Of a stretch of 64,000 nucleotides of DNA, positions 9,816 to 50,272 are shown in pieces. The stretch comes from an uncultured Nitrospirota bacterium (GTDB taxonomy: Bacteria; Nitrospirota; Nitrospiria; Nitrospirales; UBA8639), in the NCBI GenBank assembly GCA_937139405.1, contig CAKZPV010000010.1:7864-71863 (forward strand). Reading direction: 5' to 3'. The first letter of the stretch is position 1; each line of letters opens with the position of its first letter. The notes beneath the pieces are model-generated. The model had not been told where the DNA came from and ran no database searches. It saw only the letters and a list, made by a program, of their open reading frames with translations. The position numbers and the translations under genes are program-made.

Positions 9816-11213
9816 ATGTTTCGAAAAATTCAGCACATTCATCTCGTTGGAATCGGTGGAAGTGGCATGAGCGGCATTGCGGAAGTGCTCCTGACGTTAG
9901 GGTATAAAGTCACGGGTTCTGATACGGGATATTCCGATAGTATTCGTCGGTTGGAAGGAATGGGGGGGACGGTGCATATCGGCCATCAGGAATCGCATGT
10001 TGAGGGCGCGCAAGTGGTTGTCATGTCGTCGGCTATTGCGACATCAAACCCAGAAATTCGTGCAGCACGAGCCAAAGTGATTCCAGTCATCCCACGTGCA
10101 GAGATGCTAGCCGAATTGATGCGCTTGAAATTTGGAATTGCCATTGCAGGGGCCCATGGCAAAACAACGACGACCTCCATGGTGGCGTCCATACTGGCTG
10201 AAGCCGGTCTTGATCCGACCTTTGTGGTAGGTGGGAAAGTGAATGCCATGGGGACGCATGCTCGTTTGGGGCGCAGTGATCTCCTCATTGCCGAAGCTGA
10301 TGAAAGTGATGGTTCGTTTTTGCGTTTGTCTCCTTCCATCGTGGTGGTGACTAATATGGACCGGGAGCATCTCGAGCATTATGGAAGCATGGAGCGACTG
10401 CAAGAAGCATTTTTGGAATTTATCAACAAAATTCCCTTCTATGGCGCCGCAATTTTGAGTGCAGATGATCCTTGGATTCGTGGGTTGTTGCCTGGAGTAG
10501 TGAAGCGTTATCAGACCTTTGGCATGAGTGATTTTTCTGGTGTCCTGACGCCAGATCTATTTGCGACGGATATTGAACCTAAAGCCTTAGGTATAGAGTT
10601 TCGCGCTCATTATCGAGGCCAAAAAATTGGGCCGTTTCGCATTCGCATCCCCGGTGTTCACAATGTGTCGAATGCGTTAGCCGCGATTGGCGTTGCGTTG
10701 GAGTTAGACGTGCCTGTGGATCTCATTCGATCGGGTCTAGCCGCGTTTTCTGGTGTGGAGCGCCGGTTTCAAATACGGGGTGAAAAAAACGGGATTATGG
10801 TCGTAGATGATTATGGCCATCACCCTACCGAAGTCCGTGCCACATTGGCCGCAGCACGAGCGACGTGGTCTCGACGTTTAGTGGTGGTCTTTCAACCTCA
10901 TCGATATTCTAGAACAAGGGATCTAGCTGATGATTTTGCCAAGGCATTTGAACAAGCTGACGTGATTTATGTTTTGGATATCTATGCCGCGGGGGAAAAC
11001 CCAATTCCTGGAATAAGTGGACAGACGTTGGTCGAAAAAATCAGTGGGTCTGGTCATTCTTCTGTTCATTGGGTCAACGGTGATCCTGGATTCGTGAGCC
11101 GGCTGCGAGATGATCTCCGAGAAGGCGATGTGTTGTTGACATTAGGTGCTGGAGATGTGTGGAAAATTGGGCAAGAACTTCTTGGAACGATAGGTGTAAA
11201 GCGTGAGGAGTGA
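9816..11213 (+). CDS. murC: UDP-MurNAc:L-Ala ligase
   Basis: GIGGSGMSGIA, GAHGKTTT, EADESD, DDYGHHPTE, FQPHRYSRT. Confidence 0.98.
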   Translation: MFRKIQHIHLVGIGGSGMSGIAEVLLTLGYKVTGSDTGYSDSIRRLEGMGGTVHIGHQESHVEGAQVVVMSSAIATSNPEIRAARAKVIPVIPRAEMLAELMRLKFGIAIAGAHGKTTTTSMVASILAEAGLDPTFVVGGKVNAMGTHARLGRSDLLIAEADESDGSFLRLSPSIVVVTNMDREHLEHYGSMERLQEAFLEFINKIPFYGAAILSADDPWIRGLLPGVVKRYQTFGMSDFSGVLTPDLFATDIEPKALGIEFRAHYRGQKIGPFRIRIPGVHNVSNALAAIGVALELDVPVDLIRSGLAAFSGVERRFQIRGEKNGIMVVDDYGHHPTEVRATLAAARATWSRRLVVVFQPHRYSRTRDLADDFAKAFEQADVIYVLDIYAAGENPIPGISGQTLVEKISGSGHSSVHWVNGDPGFVSRLRDDLREGDVLLTLGAGDVWKIGQELLGTIGVKREE

Positions 11214-11293
11214 ACAGGAAAAAGTGAGAAACAAGAAAAAACCTCTCAGTAATGATTGTCTCTCATGCTTTTGACTTTTTGTATTTCACTTTT
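11196..11293. repeat. Period-7 degenerate repeat arranged as an imperfect inverted repeat, overlapping the murC stop
   Basis: Heptamers gtaaagc/gtgagga/gtgaaca/ggaaaaa/gtgagaa/acaagaa (11196-11237); 11220-11237 pairs with 11276-11293 (15 Watson-Crick pairs, 2 G-T, 1 mismatch). Confidence 0.7.
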
Positions 11294-11313
11294 GAGGTGA
11301 ATGATATTGGGCT

Positions 11314-12246
11314 TTGGATGTCATGGTAGCAAGTCAGAGGCGCGTACCCTTTCTGTCTGTCCTTCGTCGAGCGCTACTTCAGGTGGAAGGAGAAATTCGA
11401 TGGCACGAACCTTTGGCCCCACATACGTCTCTCCAAATTGGAGGTCCAGCTGATGTTTTCGTAATTCCTTCAGATGTGGAGGATGTGATTCGTGTAGTAC
11501 AGGGCGCACGGATGAGTCGCATTCCACTTATGGTGTTGGGTGGAACGAACGTGGTTATTCGAGATAAGGGGATTCGAGGCATCGTAATGCAGTTGAAACA
11601 ATTGACAGAGATTCGTGAAGAACCCAACCAATTGGTGTATTCGCAAGCTGGTGTACGGTTACCACGACTGATGCAATTTGCCCTTGGCCGAAAATTGTCA
11701 GGTATGGAATGGGCCGCTGGAGTTCCAGGGACAGTAGGCGGTGGTGTGGCAATGAATGCGGGAACTCGTTTAGGGGAAATGCAGGATATTTTGCAAGCGA
11801 TTGATTTTGTCACTCTACATGGAATTCGGAAGCGCATAGAGGCTTCAACCGTTTCATTTCTGTATCGTAAGACGATGCTTCCGAAAGGCATTGTCGTGGG
11901 GGCTTGGATGCAATTGACGTCCGCAGCAAAAGATACAATTCAATCTGCCACGAAACAGTATCTGCAGTATCGCAAATCTACACAACCGTTGACTTTGCCA
12001 AATGCCGGATCGGTTTTTAAGAACCCCAGCGGAGATTCAGCTGGACGTTTGATTGAAGTGACAGGATTGAAAGGGTTGAGAGTCGGTGATGCTGAGGTTT
12101 CCACGAAACATGCAAATTTCATTGTGAACAGGGGAGCCGCAACAGCAGACCAGGTCCTTCGATTAGTCCGTAAGGTTCAAGATTCTGTTGCCATAAAATT
12201 TGGAGTCGCTTTGCAATTGGAATGGAAGGTGGTCGGGGAAAGATGA
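11314..12246 (+). CDS. murB: UDP-N-acetylenolpyruvoylglucosamine reductase
   Basis: IGGPAD, GVPGTVGG...MNAG, NAGSVFKNP, KHANFIVN. Confidence 0.96.
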   Translation: MDVMVASQRRVPFLSVLRRALLQVEGEIRWHEPLAPHTSLQIGGPADVFVIPSDVEDVIRVVQGARMSRIPLMVLGGTNVVIRDKGIRGIVMQLKQLTEIREEPNQLVYSQAGVRLPRLMQFALGRKLSGMEWAAGVPGTVGGGVAMNAGTRLGEMQDILQAIDFVTLHGIRKRIEASTVSFLYRKTMLPKGIVVGAWMQLTSAAKDTIQSATKQYLQYRKSTQPLTLPNAGSVFKNPSGDSAGRLIEVTGLKGLRVGDAEVSTKHANFIVNRGAATADQVLRLVRKVQDSVAIKFGVALQLEWKVVGER

Positions 12247-27600: not shown

Positions 27601-27709
27601 GTGAGGAGTTCTGGAGTGAAAAGTAAAAAGTGAGGAGTAAAAGACGAGAAGAGCTTGCTATTCATGCTTCTTGCTCCCGTCTGATTGTTTCTTTTTCTTA
27701 CTTTTTACT
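27601..27709. repeat. Period-7 inverted-repeat element between pilT and pilC
   Basis: gtgagga...gtgaaaa/gtaaaaa/gtgagga/gtaaaag; 27622-27634 pairs with 27697-27709 (13 bp, one G-T). Confidence 0.7.
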
Positions 27710-27766
27710 GCTGGCAATTCACTGGTTTAATTAGGCAAGTTATAGAAACGATTGAGAAACTATCAG

Positions 27767-33597: not shown

Positions 33598-34221
33598 ATG
33601 CCTCTACTAATCAATTTAGTCGACATTCCTTCTGAAGGATTGCCTGTTCAGTATGAGGTGCAGGCTTCGGAAGTCATGTTGCCGCGTGATGATGGGAAAG
33701 TTGTTGGTTTTCTTAATTGCTCCGGGCAGGTTTTTTCAACTGATGACCATTTGGCCAATTTTCGCGGAACACTCACTGGAAAGGTCATTCGTGAATGTGT
33801 TCGCTGTTTAATGAGATTTGAAGAAGATGTATCCTTGTCTTGGGATGCGGAGTTTAGACAATCAAATGAATCTTCAGTCGTGCCAGTTTCTTCTAAAAAA
33901 ATGAAAAAAGGCAGTCGAAGGCATAATGCAGCCATTGATGAGGAAGATGAACATGCAATCGACGCATATCCTATACAGGATAATCAGATTGACTTACTTC
34001 CTGCCTTGCAGGAACATCTCATTTTAGCGACTCCCTTGCAACCCTTGTGTGATGAAAATTGCTCGGGATTGTGCCAAGTGTGTGGAGCCAACTTAAATGA
34101 AGGCGTATGTGGATGTTGTTTGCCAGTAACCGAATCCTCTTCCTTAATTGCTGATACCAAAATTCCTATGAATATAAAAATTTCTCGACATTCTCTAAGT
34201 CCCCTTCCTGAAGAGGTTTAA
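33598..34221 (+). CDS. YceD/DUF177 family protein (large-subunit rRNA accumulation)
   Basis: ECVRCL, PLCDENCSGLCQVCGANLN; directly upstream of rpmF. Confidence 0.9.
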   Translation: MPLLINLVDIPSEGLPVQYEVQASEVMLPRDDGKVVGFLNCSGQVFSTDDHLANFRGTLTGKVIRECVRCLMRFEEDVSLSWDAEFRQSNESSVVPVSSKKMKKGSRRHNAAIDEEDEHAIDAYPIQDNQIDLLPALQEHLILATPLQPLCDENCSGLCQVCGANLNEGVCGCCLPVTESSSLIADTKIPMNIKISRHSLSPLPEEV

Positions 34222-46473: not shown

Positions 46474-46480
46474 AAAAACC

Positions 46481-46529
46481 GTAAGGCGTGAAGAGTAAGA
46501 TGTGAAAAGGAAAAAGTGCAATGTAAAAA
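46481..46529 (+). repeat. Seven-unit degenerate heptamer array
   Basis: gtaaggc/gtgaaga/gtaagat/gtgaaaa/ggaaaaa/gtgcaat/gtaaaaa in exact period 7. Confidence 0.75.
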
Positions 46530-46541
46530 GCATGTGTTTAG

Positions 46542-46954: not shown

Positions 46955-49900
46955 ATGTTTGAGAATAAGAATTCAGCCGTCATCTGGTTTTTAGGGAAAT
47001 GGCGGAGCAGTTTGGTCTTCCGTATTTCCACCAATTTGACCTTCTCTATAGGTCTGTTGGTATTAGTTGGTGCGGTCTTGATCGGCTATGGTCAACGCGA
47101 ATTACTGCTAGAGGCGTTTCGCGATCGGGGAGTTGCAGTGGCCCGAACTTTTTCCACGGTAGGGGCTGCTGCCATATTGGATAATTTGTTTCGCATTCAA
47201 GAGTCTATGTCAGCCTATGCTGAAGATGATGATCTAAAAGTCTTAGAAGTTCTGGACGAAGACAATATGATCATCGCTTCCATTCGACCGACTACAATTG
47301 GAACGATGGTGGAAGACCCACAGTTGAAGAACGCGCAGAAGATGGGCTCAGAATTACACATGTTTGTGGATACCACTGATGGCGGGACGATGTTTGTGGT
47401 GATCGAGCCCTTGTTGAATGAGGACGAAATCGTCGCGTGGGTCCGTATCGGATTTTCGCTCAATCGTCTTCAGGAACAAGAACGGGAATTGCGGATCGGG
47501 CTAATGATCATGTCGGTCGTCTTTATTGGACTTGCAATTTTTGGAGTAAGAAAAGGAATTTTTCAGATCTTGCCAATTTTAGAGGAACTGATTGAGAAAC
47601 TCCAAGCGGTGGCTCAAGTCACCGAAGGGAACGTCCTCCACAGTACTGAGGGGTTTCATAAACGAGACATAGACTCCAAAGACGGAGAGGTGGAGCAATT
47701 GGTAGGCGTGGCCACACAAGCGGCTAGCTTATTGGAATATCGGACCAAAGCCCTCAAGCGGCTCATGGTGAGCCAAGAAATAAAAAATCGAGAATTTGCC
47801 CGTTTGGCGTCATTTCCAGAAATGAATCCCAATCCGGTCATCGAAATGGATTTTCAGCAGTGCATTTCGTATATCAATCCCTCGGCAAACCGAATGTTCC
47901 CTGAGTTAGCTCAGCTGGGCCTTGGTCACCCTCTCTTCATACAAGTGGCAGATTCATTGGAATGCATTATTTCCAGGAAGGAGAAGACGGTCCTTCAAGA
48001 AGTGACTGAGTCTGATCGTATCTTTGAAATACGGATGACCTTGGTGGAATCTAGTCAGGTGTTGCGGCTGTATTTGCATGAAGTGACGCAGCGAAAATTG
48101 GCAGAGGATCAAGTTCGGCAGGCAGTACGAGAGCTAGAAATCAGCAATCAGGAGTTGGCGCTATCTCGTGACGGTGCTTTGAGTGCTGCGAAAGCCAAGA
48201 CCGATTTTTTAGCGACGATGAGCCATGAAATCCGAACTCCCATGAATGGCGTCATTGGCATGACAGGACTGCTTTTGGATACATCGTTGACTCCTGAGCA
48301 GCGGAAGATGACGGAGATTGTGCAGATTTCTGGTGAATCGTTGTTGACGATTATTAATGATATTTTAGACTTTTCAAAAATTGAGTCGGGAAAGTTGGAG
48401 TTAGAGAATATTCCCTTGAATGCTCAGTCTTGTGTGGAGGAAGTATTGGATCTATTGGCCGGGCACGCCAACGCCAAGAATCTTGAATTGACAAGTTGGG
48501 TTTTCCCTAATGTTACGACGGATTTGTTGGGGGATCCTGGGCGGTTTCGTCAGGTCATGATGAATTTAGTGGGGAACGCCATTAAATTCACGGAAATAGG
48601 AGAAGTGTCAGTTCAAGTCTTATTAGAAGATGAAACCGAGGATGACGTGGTGTTGCAAGTCAAAGTCATCGATACAGGCGTGGGAGTGTCACCAGAGCAG
48701 CAAGCCAAGTTATTTCAGGCGTTTACTCAAGCGGATAGTTCCACGACTCGAAAATTTGGAGGAACAGGGTTGGGTTTGGCGATCTGCAAACAGTTGGTAG
48801 AGCATATGGATGGGACCATTGGAGTTATCAGTGAGGATGGGGAAGGCAGTTGTTTTTGGTTTCGCATACGTCTTGATAAAGCGCATAGCGATCAACCGAC
48901 TTGCCTCACAGATCAACCCCTGGCTGGAATCAAGTTGTGTTGTGTCGATGATAATGAGACAAATCGCATGGTGCTTTACCAATATGCGCAGACGTGGGGA
49001 GTCGAAGTGGAGGTTGCAGAAGGAGGCCATCAAGCTTTAGCCCTTCTTCGAGAGAGTCATGCCCAAGGTAAGCCCTTTGATATGGTCCTTATCGATATGA
49101 GCATGCCCGAAATGAATGGAACGAAACTGGCCAAGGTGATTAAAAATGATTCTGAGCTGTCGAATCTGAAATTAGTATTACTCACGTCTGCTGGTTTTCG
49201 TGGAGATGATAAAAAGGCACAACAAATAGGTTTTGATGCCTATCTATCCAAACCAATTCGTAAAAAAGATCTCCAAGTGTGTCTGGCAATGATTATGGGT
49301 CGACATGATATGTTCGTTCCCCCGCTTTCTGACGGGGCGCTTGGAAGTCCAATCAATTCGGAGCAAAGGGCTCGAGTTGGCCATATCCTTGTGGTCGATG
49401 ATCATGTGGTGAATCAACAACTTGCAGAAATGATGCTGCTCCGTTTAGGTCATCAGGTTGATCTGGTGGGCAATGGGCTTGAAGCGATAGAAGTCATAGG
49501 GCGTATTCGGTATGACTTGGTATTGATGGATTGCCAAATGCCAGAAATGGATGGGTATGACGCGACAAAAAAGATTCGTGAAATAGAAAGCATGAACTGT
49601 GAAGCGTTAGACGTAAAGGGTGAATCGAATGAAGAATGTTTTACTGACGTTTTACGCCTCAGACCTGAGGGCACGCTTCGCGTGCCGATTGTGGCTATGA
49701 CGGCCAATGCAATGCAGGGTGATCGAGAAAAATGTTTGGCAGTTGGTATGGACGATTACATCAGTAAGCCCATCAAATCAGAGGATTTAGCTGAAATAGT
49801 GAACAAATGGTTGCACGCGAAAGGTACTGCTGAAGGGACAGATGAGCCCAAAGTGGAACCAACATCGCGGATCGATGCCCATTCTTTGGTTCCTGTTCAG

Positions 49901-50272
49901 GTGGAGGCGGCGGAACCGCTGCTCTCCCCACAATTGGTTGCTGACTGGAGAATAGCCGGAGGCAGTGCCTTTGTCTCGAAATTAGTGAGTCAATTCGTTT
50001 CGGATGCCACGGCCAGTGTCGAAAAAATTCAGGCGGCCTTAGAATCGGAAAACGCCAACGAAGTGCTTGAAGCGGCGCATGGCTTGAAGGGGATGTCCGC
50101 GAATATGGGGCTCACAGAGTTAGTCAGAGCGGCCCATCACATGGAAACTCTGGGCCGGCATTACAATCTTCAAGATGGCTCTTCTGTTTTTGATTCAGTG
50201 CAGAAGGAGTTTGCTCGTGTCCATGAAGCACTTCAAGATGTGCTAGAGCAAGAAGAACTCTCTTCTAAATAA
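46955..50272 (+). CDS. Hybrid sensor histidine kinase (TM-periplasmic sensor-TM-PAS-like-HisKA-HATPase-REC-REC-Hpt)
   Basis: [37 protein letters not shown], two REC domains (LIDMSMP; LMDCQMP), AAHGLKGMS. Confidence 0.95.
49599..49661. repeat. Heptamer inverted-repeat element in frame within the second REC domain
   Basis: gtgaagc/gttagac/gtaaagg/gtgaatc; 49600-49614 pairs with 49647-49661 (12 Watson-Crick pairs, 1 G-T, 2 mismatches). Confidence 0.7.

What the first reader, a model, noticed from the sequence alone, without database searches (positions are those of the whole stretch)
49592..49680. Heptamer palindrome inserted in frame inside a receiver domain
Seen: between [12 protein letters not shown] and [12 protein letters not shown] the second REC domain carries a long segment ([29 protein letters not shown]) encoded by the heptamer inverted repeat. 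Established: this alpha3-beta4 loop is normally only a few residues long, and Rickettsia palindromic elements show that DNA repeats can become in-frame protein insertions. Inference: repeat-driven creation of new peptide sequence in a signalling protein.
Basis: partly seen in the sequence, partly recalled or inferred. Interest (0 to 1): 0.66.

Follow-up and report, generated by a model that had tools for sequence, protein, structure and literature searches.

The report
Translated heptamer hairpin in kinase receiver
A sensor-kinase gene of a marine-type Nitrospirales bacterium carries, in frame, an eroding copy of a 7-base-repeat hairpin element that is translated as a floppy surface loop; the same insert sits at the same spot in most sister kinases of this bacterial order and looks freshest in genomes that still carry a small, unexplained four-helix-bundle gene flanked by the same repeats.

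Summary
Window 49599-49670 holds a purine arm, four GTNA-phased heptamers plus two degenerate units. It is followed by a partly complementary pyrimidine arm, in frame in the second receiver domain (REC2) of an 1105-aa hybrid histidine kinase.

The nearest solved receiver has no counterpart for 26 residues. AlphaFold2 models an extended helix 3 plus a disordered loop, in a helix-to-strand loop.

The insert is not private to this gene. Six paralogous kinases in this genome, all 12 same-genus orthologues and most paralogues carry a long loop at this site. Several other Nitrospirales kinases do too. Many show far clearer heptamer palindromes than this copy. Shared stop-avoiding variants (GTTAGG, GCAAGA) and a shared reading frame indicate one origin within the genus.

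In the arms, third codon positions are as conserved as first and second. The arms covary. Other lineages use other units, such as GTTTCAR, which match their own genome-wide families.

In relatives the same arrays bracket a PF05635 gene ("23S rRNA intervening-sequence protein"). This genome has lost that gene, and its arrays and inserts are decayed.

Best reading: a tolerated, RPE-like translated repeat, here a decaying relic. It is a new variant of a known kind.

The parts
46955..50272 (+). Hybrid histidine kinase gene, 1105 aa, with Cache-like sensor, HisKA, HATPase_c, REC1, REC2 and HPt domains.
   Evidence: ORF. Pfam domains; the Response_reg model matches in three stretches because REC2 is split by the insert.
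49379..49798 (+). Second receiver domain (REC2), which hosts the insert. The conserved receiver residues are kept: D8, D51, T108 and K130 in domain numbering.
   Evidence: Alignment A2; PDB matches; AlphaFold2 model with core pLDDT above 90.
49589..49666 (+). Inserted segment relative to insert-free receivers: 26 aa, [26 protein letters not shown]. Its first part extends helix 3 and the rest is modelled as disordered coil.
   Evidence: Split alignment to 7c1j_A. Loop length is 59 aa against a modal 33 aa. pLDDT is 46-48 for residues 81-100.
49599..49640 (+). Purine (5') arm: GTGAAGC GTTAGAC GTAAAGG GTGAATC, plus the degenerate units GAATGAA GAATGTT. In the second unit, GTTAG stands where GTAAG would give an in-frame TAA stop.
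   Evidence: with 15 of 16 matches to the GTRA phase. The stop-avoiding T is shared with orthologues and paralogues: U in 14 and C in 3 of 21 sequences at column 50 of alignment A1.
49643..49670 (+). Pyrimidine (3') arm, eroded: ACTGACG TTTTACG CCTCAGA CCTGAGG. It aligns with CCTGACT CCTTACT CCTCACT CCTCACT of the relatives.
   Evidence: Alignment A1; RNA pairing with the 5' arm.
11192..11295 (+). Heptamer hairpin of the same family, lying between a Mur ligase gene and murB. The stop codon of the upstream ORF (TGA, 11211-11213) lies inside the array.
   Evidence: I4; D2.
27601..27710 (+). Heptamer hairpin of the same family, lying between a T2SSE (PilT/PilB-like) gene and a T2SSF (PilC-like) gene.
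   Evidence: (I15).
46478..46530 (+). Purine heptamer array that starts 5 nt after the panB stop codon, upstream of the kinase gene.
   Evidence: (D2).

Best explanation
The segment is a translated copy of a heptamer-armed hairpin element. The element has a purine arm (GTRARRN)n, a short centre and a complementary arm (NYYTYAC)n. In this Nitrospirales genus it normally sits between cistrons.

One copy became fixed, in frame, in the alpha3-beta4 loop of the receiver domain of an ancestral hybrid kinase. Two point changes, GTAAG to GTTAG and GTAAG to GCAAG, removed the in-frame stop that every third purine unit would otherwise give. The gene then multiplied, so six paralogues in this genome, their orthologues and most paralogues sampled across the genus carry homologous inserts.

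The insert is read as a short extension of helix 3 plus about 20 disordered residues. Alpha-to-beta loops lie on the face of the receiver fold opposite the phospho-acceptor aspartate (from knowledge of the fold), so the kinase tolerates it.

The arms behave as nucleic-acid features, not as protein features. In the arms conservation does not depend on codon position, as it does in the flanks. The two arms covary. The unit tracks each lineage's own genome-wide family.

Inferred, not shown: the arrays are kept fresh by a process linked to the PF05635 four-helix-bundle cassette, which the same arrays bracket in relatives. This genome has deleted that cassette, so its arrays are decaying, and 49599-49670 is a relic with no demonstrated function of its own.
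For: Shown:
- Genome-wide family: 24 strong arrays against 3 in a shuffled genome. The intergenic copies are hairpins between co-directional genes.
- Same site in six paralogues of this genome, in all 12 orthologues and in most of the 40 further paralogues fetched.
- Insert-free relatives from many phyla have a 33-aa stretch here. The PDB alignment splits at the insert.
- The reading frame and both stop-avoiding variants are shared (alignment A1).
- In the arms, mean pairwise identity at codon positions 1/2/3 is 0.66/0.66/0.69 and 0.72/0.81/0.68. In the 3' flank it is 0.75/0.81/0.43.
- The 16-bp helix is paired in 81.7% of cells, against 33-46% when the partner strand is slid. The covariation score is 0.165 against 0.115, reached by 1 of 500 shuffles. 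AU/CG swaps occur at column pairs 47-100 and 54-93.
- 17 of 52 inserts fold better than synonymous recodings at z < -2. The values run continuously from -6.5 to +2.6.
- The genome holding L029 has 48 GTTTCAR arrays against 0 in the control, and its kinase insert uses that unit. L043, L027 and L025 use other units.
- AlphaFold2 models a confident receiver fold, with residues 79-103 as coil at pLDDT 46-48.

Support for the inferred part:
- PF05635 is found in 13 of 25 relatives and not in this genome.
- In the genus it lies between cheY and cheA, flanked by GTRAGGN and CCTYAC arrays. In the L029 genome it is flanked by GTTTCAR arrays.
- The cheY-cheA junction of this genome keeps only a right-arm remnant.
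- The mean fold z of kinase inserts is below -0.98 in all 8 genomes with an intact PF05635, and above -0.87 in all 5 genomes without it (U = 0, p = 0.0008).
- Counts of perfect two-unit arrays have a median of 9 with the gene and 1 without it.
Against: - The receiver tree is too short to root or resolve. At least 3 gains or losses of the insert are forced, so a single origin for the whole order is not shown. A Desulfobacteraceae kinase (L097) has a heptamer hairpin at the same site, which suggests recurrent capture.
- The PF05635 correlation is not corrected for phylogeny. Three of the five genomes without the gene (G004, G010, G015) hold the orthologues most distant from this gene and may be related to one another. 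G003, G017 and G046 have the gene but few perfect arrays of the two patterns I counted.
- Conservation independent of codon position and covariation of the arms also fit selection for a functional mRNA hairpin.
- The peptide motif TPDSLPLTPH is well conserved among genus paralogues, which could reflect selection on the protein.
- RNAalifold found no consensus structure on the unedited alignment. I chose the tested helix myself by scanning registers.
Confidence: 0.72

Rival explanations
1. The hairpin is a functional mRNA element kept by selection. It might pause ribosomes between helix 3 and strand 4, with SD-like AAGGAG/GAGGAG motifs in the 5' arm. It might instead set mRNA stability or processing within kinase operons. 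On this reading the peptide is a by-product.
For: Arm conservation does not depend on codon position. The arms covary, and G-U pairs are tolerated, which favours RNA over DNA pairing. In 17 of 52 inserts the hairpin is stronger than synonymous recoding allows. The insert is retained in most of the kinases examined. The 5' arm units complement the 16S rRNA 3' end, CACCUCCUUUCU.
Against: Fold z values form a continuum down to no structure at all, including five of the six copies in this genome. Orthologous inserts diverge faster than their flanks at short range. The unit differs between lineages and follows each genome's intergenic family. There is no Rfam match, and no expression data were available.
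Confidence: 0.17
2. The inserted peptide has acquired a protein-level role, for example as a docking or linker motif ([ST]P[DY][SA]L[PL]L[TS]PH) for a partner of this kinase family. The DNA repeat is only its historical source.
For: The right-arm peptide is conserved across paralogue groups. The insert is rarely lost. Plant AHK5 also has a long loop at this site (4euk).
Against: This gene has lost the motif ([13 protein letters not shown]) while the rest of REC2 stays intact. Third codon positions are as conserved as first and second, which is not the pattern of protein-level selection. AlphaFold2 gives no ordered structure. Other lineages encode unrelated peptides at the same site.
Confidence: 0.08
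3. The array is a phase-variation (contingency) tract. Gain or loss of 7-nt units would switch the kinase on and off.
For: The unit length is not a multiple of three. Perfect arrays of up to about 28 GTGAGGC copies exist in relatives, so slippage does happen.
Against: The units in the coding copies are imperfect. All 12 orthologues and the paralogues examined are open across the insert. Length differences among inserts are in whole codons.
Confidence: 0.02
4. The pattern is chance low-complexity sequence from a charged, proline-rich loop.
For: This copy is degenerate. Its synonymous-recoding z is only -1.74.
Against: Protein-level pressure cannot produce a period of 7. The arrays are identical in type to the intergenic ones. 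Arrays number 24 against 3 in the shuffle, and three of them fall in about 540 nt of homologous loops. Orthologues carry near-perfect palindromes.
Confidence: 0.01

Closest known systems
Rickettsia palindromic elements (RPE), which insert in frame in protein-coding genes (reviewed in PMC10969869; Ogata et al. 2000 cited from my own knowledge)
   Same: Both are dispersed, hairpin-forming repeats that are translated in frame inside working genes, at sites compatible with the protein fold. Both occur between genes as well as within them.
   Different: RPEs are unique sequences of about 100-150 bp that encode a conserved peptide, and they are scattered over many unrelated genes. Here the arms are tandem 7-nt units with a lineage-specific unit. 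The purine arm carries stops in all three frames unless mutated. In this genome the coding copies are confined to one paralogous kinase family and are inherited at one site. There is no sequence homology to RPEs.
Heptanucleotide repeat families: cyanobacterial STRR, the TAACTGA repeats of Beggiatoaceae (PMC4679880), and the GGACCGG and MTYCTGA repeats of Geobacter metallireducens (PMC2700814)
   Same: All are 7-nt tandem units, mostly intergenic and close to gene ends or starts. Forward arrays give stops in three frames. Occasional intragenic copies sit at permissive positions. Function is unknown in every case.
   Different: The unit sequence is different (GTRARRN). Here the arrays are organised as inverted pairs that form hairpins. 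A coding copy is conserved across a gene family, and the arrays are associated with PF05635 genes. I found none of these three points described in those papers.
PF05635 / TIGR02436 '23S rRNA intervening-sequence protein' (four-helix bundle, related to Avd) cassettes
   Same: In relatives of this genome the gene is bracketed by the same heptamer arrays.
   Different: The classical setting is inside 23S rRNA helices. Here the gene lies between cheY and cheA. The window's genome has no copy, so the kinase insert is at most an orphan derivative.
REP/REPIN elements with their RAYT transposases
   Same: Both are short intercistronic hairpin repeats that are vertically inherited and family-specific.
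   Different: There is no GTAG-headed REP. The three Y1_Tnp genes of this genome are not flanked by the arrays.

Membership tests
In-frame palindromic repeat insertions (RPE-like, MITE-like) | The element belongs to a dispersed repeat family in the same genome. | tested here: met
   24 arrays against 3 in a shuffled genome. Intergenic copies lie at 11192, 27601 and 46478 in the window.
In-frame palindromic repeat insertions (RPE-like, MITE-like) | The element is palindromic and forms a hairpin. | tested here: met
   RNA fold z = -3.2. The family helix is paired in 81.7% of cells, against 33-46% when slid.
In-frame palindromic repeat insertions (RPE-like, MITE-like) | The element is translated in frame within an otherwise intact gene, at a structurally permissive site. 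| tested here: met
   Open 1105-aa frame. Catalytic receiver residues are kept. The insert is modelled as coil at pLDDT 46-48, between helix 3 and strand 4.
In-frame palindromic repeat insertions (RPE-like, MITE-like) | Terminal inverted repeats with target-site duplication, or homology to a known RPE or MITE family. | tested here: inconclusive
   I noticed no target-site duplication at the insert borders, but made no dedicated search for one. No comparison with RPE sequences was made. Rfam gives no match.
Heptanucleotide tandem repeats (STRR / TAACTGA type) | Tandem 7-nt units, mostly intergenic and at gene boundaries. | tested here: met
   Perfect (GTGAGGC)n arrays occur in relatives.
Heptanucleotide tandem repeats (STRR / TAACTGA type) | Unit sequence equal to a described family (CCCCAGT, TTGGTCA, CAACAGT or TAACTGA). 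| tested here: not met
   The unit is GTRARRN here and GTTTCAR, GGCGAGR and others in related lineages.
PF05635-bracketing heptamer hairpin cassettes | Inverted heptamer arrays flank a PF05635 gene. | tested here: not met
   Not met in the window's genome: there is no PF05635 match and only a right-arm remnant at the cheY-cheA junction. Met in relatives.
REP/RAYT (REPIN) systems | The repeats flank a Y1 (RAYT) transposase gene. | tested here: not met
   Three Y1_Tnp genes were found. No array with at least 11 of 12 GTRA-phase matches lies within 1.2 kb of any of them.
Phase-variable simple-sequence contingency loci | Perfect tandem units in the coding sequence, with frame-shifting length variants among relatives. 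| tested here: not met
   The units are imperfect. All orthologues and paralogues are open across the insert.
Response-regulator receiver domain (PF00072) | (beta-alpha)5 fold with the acidic pocket, the phospho-acceptor Asp, and the conserved Thr and Lys. | tested here: met
   Pfam E-value 1.4e-43. D8, D51, T108 and K130 are conserved. AlphaFold2 strands and helices appear in canonical order.

The most novel reading that the evidence does not exclude
Heptamer-armed hairpins, including those translated inside kinase genes, would be continually rewritten towards a genome-specific unit by a trans-acting process that depends on the PF05635 four-helix-bundle protein, through binding, homing or conversion of arrays. 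Coding copies would then stay recognisable for far longer than neutral DNA could, and would decay only after the cassette is lost, as in this genome. That would make PF05635 the partner of a widespread and so far unexplained class of bacterial repeats (STRR-like heptamers). It would also be a mechanism that edits loop sequences of signalling proteins.
Probability: 0.25. Interest if true: 0.88.

Novelty: new variant of a known kind. Interest (0 to 1): 0.66.

Why it matters
In-frame selfish repeats are textbook only for Rickettsia. Here a structurally different repeat, with tandem 7-nt arms, is translated inside a whole family of sensor kinases across a bacterial order that is central to nitrification.

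The case offers a natural series from near-perfect palindromes to eroded relics at one homologous protein site. That series could be used to measure how fast such elements decay, whether nucleic-acid-level forces can override codon-level evolution, and how new loop sequence enters signalling proteins.

The link to PF05635 genes gives a concrete, testable handle on two long-standing puzzles: what heptanucleotide repeat families are for, and what the "23S rRNA intervening-sequence protein" does.

Tried and rejected
- REP/RAYT link: three Y1_Tnp genes exist, but none is flanked by heptamer arrays.
- Genome-specific "flavour" of the seventh unit position (GGAG against GGCG) as a clean marker of concerted evolution: counts per genome are mixed and dominated by a few long perfect arrays. 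I kept only the within-element AU/CG covariation.
- Compensated frameshift in this gene's right arm relative to orthologues: an in-frame alignment with a 9-nt gap explains the difference, so no frameshift is needed.
- RNAalifold on the raw alignment gave no consensus structure. I then chose a register by scanning. The best registers are spaced by 7, as expected for repeat arms.
- Receiver-domain tree to decide between one and several origins: only 126 columns, most forks unresolved.
- Integron attC cores, CsrA-type GGA sponges and telomerase-like templated addition were considered from memory. I dropped them because the unit differs between lineages and the units within an array are not identical.
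- Rfam gave no match at E <= 1.
- Literature searches for Nitrospira heptamer repeats, and for a link between intervening-sequence proteins and repeats, found nothing relevant.
Full report
**1. The observation**

The ORF at 46955-50272 (+) encodes an 1105-aa hybrid histidine kinase with a Cache-like sensor, HisKA, HATPase_c, two receiver domains and an HPt domain. Pfam matches the receiver model in three stretches because the second receiver (REC2) is interrupted.

In heptamer phase the sequence reads GTGAAGC GTTAGAC GTAAAGG GTGAATC GAATGAA GAATGTT (49599-49640). It is followed by ACTGACG TTTTACG CCTCAGA CCTGAGG (49643-49670).

As RNA, 49598-49609 pairs with 49645-49656 and 49613-49618 pairs with 49639-49644. 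The energy is -33.2 kcal/mol, z = -3.2, and none of 200 dinucleotide shuffles is as stable. As DNA the fold is weaker, z = -2.2, because four of the 12 outer pairs are G-U.

Arrays matching (GTRA-NNN)x4 at 15 or more of 16 positions number 24 in the 4.46-Mb genome, against 3 in a shuffled copy.

**2. It is an insert, in a helix-to-strand loop**

Among 80 relatives of REC2 from many phyla, the modal distance from D..MP to ..TA is 33 aa. Here it is 59 aa.

The best solved structure, 7c1j_A, aligns to query residues 2-70 and 97-138 with adjacent chain residues. That leaves 26 residues (49589-49666) unmatched. Plant AHK5 (4euk) has a loop of similar length, so the site is permissive elsewhere too.

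An AlphaFold2 model built on a 71-sequence alignment has mean pLDDT 85.4. It shows the canonical receiver order of strands and helices. Helix 3 is extended to residue 78, residues 79-103 are coil at pLDDT 46-48, and strand 4 lies at 104-108. Alpha-to-beta loops lie on the face opposite the phospho-acceptor aspartate (knowledge of the CheY fold). The conserved D8, D51, T108 and K130 are present.

**3. The insert is a family trait**

Six paralogous receivers in this genome carry long loops at the same position: C2:148907-149098, C49:180783-180950, C49:185527-185715, C49:191457-191639, C1:147101-147247 and the window's own. Three of them hold strong arrays.

All 12 same-genus orthologues have a long loop. 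In L002, L003, L005, L007, L008 and L013 the DNA is a much clearer heptamer palindrome. L007, for example, reads CGTAAGG CGCTAGG CGTAAAA AGTGAGG ... CCTTACG CCTTACC CCTTACG CCTCACG. Forty further paralogues fetched from the genus and from sister families show the same in most cases.

The organism is a member of the Nitrospirales, judged from the record titles of the closest loci.

In this genome the only strong in-frame copies within real proteins are in this kinase family. Most of the other arrays spanned by long open frames lie upstream of start codons.

**4. Common descent within the genus**

Every third GTRA unit places TAA or TGA in frame, so a purine arm cannot be translated unaltered. 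In the 21-sequence alignment A1, the unit that would be in frame reads GTTAGG in most sequences; column 50 is U in 14 and C in 3 of 21. The next such unit reads GCAAGA. The right arm is read in one frame, giving ...TPDSLPLTPH.... Shared fixes and a shared frame indicate one insertion followed by gene duplication, or spread by conversion between paralogues. They argue against independent insertions.

A receiver-domain tree shows the insert state strongly clustered: 16 changes against 42 for shuffled labels. Six orthologue groups are wholly insert-bearing. With 126 columns the tree cannot resolve the deep order, and at least 3 changes are forced.

**5. The arms behave as nucleic acid**

- Mean pairwise identity at codon positions 1/2/3 is 0.66/0.66/0.69 in the left arm and 0.72/0.81/0.68 in the right arm. 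In the adjacent coding flank it is 0.75/0.81/0.43, and in the element's centre 0.54/0.71/0.42.
- A 16-bp helix (columns 41-56 with 91-106) is paired in 81.7% of cells, against 33-46% when slid. Its covariation score is 0.165 against a shuffled mean of 0.115, reached by 1 of 500 shuffles. AU/CG swaps occur at two pairs. I chose this helix by register scanning, which favours it somewhat.
- Against synonymous recodings of each peptide, 17 of 52 inserts fold better at z < -2. The values run continuously from -6.5 to +2.6, and this gene's value is -1.74.
- Between orthologues the insert diverges faster than its flanks at short range, for example 0.66 against 0.85-0.90. It then levels off near 0.6. 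This is turnover around a consensus, not conservation of a particular sequence.

**6. Lineage-specific units**

Other Nitrospirales kinases carry inserts at the same site built from other heptamers:
- L043: GGCGAGA GGCCAGG GGCGAGA ... CCTCGCC CCTGGCC CCTCGCC, MFE -55 kcal/mol, z = -7.8.
- L029 and L138: GTTTCAA GTTCCAA GTTTCAG GTTGCAA ... CCTGAAA CTCGAAA CACGAAA.
- L027 and L025: further types.

The genome that holds L029 has 48 GTTTCAR arrays against 0 for the reversed control. Most lie between genes of a chemotaxis operon, and one lies in frame in a CheA linker. So the coding inserts track the repeat family of their own genome. A Desulfobacteraceae kinase (L097) has a GTTTCCA-type hairpin in the same loop, which hints at recurrent capture at a permissive site.

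**7. Link to PF05635**

Notes from earlier agents of this scan claimed that heptamer hairpins bracket genes for the "23S rRNA intervening-sequence protein". I tested this here.

- PF05635 is present in 13 of 25 relatives and in 1 of 14 control genomes. It is absent from this genome. Nine of 16 further genomes have it.
- In the genus the gene lies between cheY and cheA. A GTRAGGN purine arm lies upstream and a CCTYAC arm downstream (L156, L157, L158, L166).
- In other families the flanking units differ: GGTCTGT, ATGGCAG and GTTTCAR.
- In this genome the cheY-cheA spacer is 45 nt and keeps only the right-arm remnant, TTCACTTCTGACCATTCACGAGGCAAAGC, before the cheA start. The cassette has therefore been deleted.
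- Perfect two-unit arrays are common in genomes with an intact gene (median 9, up to 74, including runs of about 28 GTGAGGC). They are rare without it (median 1; this genome has 4).
- The per-genome mean fold z of kinase inserts separates completely. All eight genomes with the gene are below -0.98, and all five without it are above -0.87 (U = 0, p = 0.0008).

This test is not corrected for phylogeny. Three of the five genomes without the gene (G004, G010, G015) hold the orthologues most distant from this gene and may be related. The contrast between this genome and G013, G016 and G022 is independent of that group. Those three hold the most similar orthologues (67-75% identity).

**8. Interpretation**

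Shown:
- The segment is an in-frame, translated copy of a heptamer-armed hairpin family.
- It is inherited across a kinase gene family.
- It sits in a disordered loop between helix 3 and strand 4.
- Its arms evolve under nucleic-acid-level constraint or homogenisation.

Inferred:
- Freshness depends on a PF05635-linked process.
- This genome's copy is a decaying relic.

Rivals are a functional mRNA hairpin (0.17), a peptide-level role (0.08), phase variation (0.02) and chance (0.01). The 5' arm units (AAGGAG, GAGGAG) complement the 16S rRNA 3' end CACCUCCUUUCU. This is compatible with ribosome interactions but is untested.

**9. Comparison with known systems**

The closest analogues are the Rickettsia palindromic elements, which insert in frame (PMC10969869), and the heptanucleotide repeat families: TAACTGA in Beggiatoaceae, where forward repeats also give three-frame stops and intragenic copies sit at protein peripheries (PMC4679880, section 15), and GGACCGG and MTYCTGA in Geobacter metallireducens (PMC2700814).

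This case differs in four ways:
- The 7-nt arrays are arranged as inverted arms.
- The unit is lineage-specific.
- One homologous coding site is conserved across a kinase family.
- The arrays are associated with PF05635.

The three Y1_Tnp genes are not flanked by arrays, so a REP/RAYT relationship is not supported. There is no Rfam family. I found no paper describing such elements in Nitrospira.

**10. Limits**

Most relatives are metagenome-assembled genomes. The number of origins across the order and the direction of the PF05635 relationship remain open.

Noticed in passing
window 11192-11295: A heptamer hairpin lies between a Mur ligase gene (9816-11213) and murB (11314-12246). The last residues of the upstream ORF (...GVKREE) and its TGA stop are supplied by the array itself.
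   Followed up: partly
window 27601-27710: A heptamer hairpin, GTGAAAA GTAAAAA GTGAGGA GTAAAAG ... CTTACTTTTTAC, lies between a T2SSE ATPase gene and a T2SSF platform gene.
   Followed up: partly
window 46478-46530: A seven-unit purine array starts 5 nt after the panB stop. I did not find a clear complementary arm nearby.
   Followed up: no
G000:C33, about 192570-192616 (outside the window): The cheY-cheA junction keeps only a right-arm remnant. Relatives carry a PF05635 gene there, bracketed by heptamer arrays, so the cassette appears to have been deleted in this genome.
   Followed up: yes
G013:C15:29595-29790; G022:C38:3-121; G016:C51:27789-27893; L007:1233-1288: Relatives hold long perfect tandem arrays of GTGAGGC, up to about 28 copies. 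One lies about 210 nt downstream of the orthologous kinase gene, where the right arm of an intergenic hairpin has expanded to nine perfect units.
   Followed up: partly
L112 (G041:C55, about 33660-33700): A GTTTCAR-type heptamer hairpin is translated in frame in a CheA linker (...GSGFQVSSSGSQHETRILQPET...) of Nitrospira sp. JTS-AC133. That genome's chemotaxis operon is dense with the same hairpins.
   Followed up: partly
L097:1648-1788: A Desulfobacteraceae hybrid kinase has a GTTTCCA-type heptamer hairpin (z = -3.6) in the same receiver loop. This suggests independent capture at the same permissive site in another phylum.
   Followed up: no
G000:C31, about 308885 (16S rRNA 3' end): The 16S rRNA ends ...GGAUCACCUCCUUUCU. 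The purine-arm units (AAGGAG, GAGGAG) resemble Shine-Dalgarno sequences and the pyrimidine arm resembles the anti-SD. The hairpins would therefore pair SD-like runs with anti-SD-like runs.
   Followed up: no
L013 (G013:C15:3415943-3419304): The G013 orthologue of this kinase is split by a single in-frame TAA near residue 475, far from the insert. It could be a pseudogene, a sequencing error or read-through.
   Followed up: no
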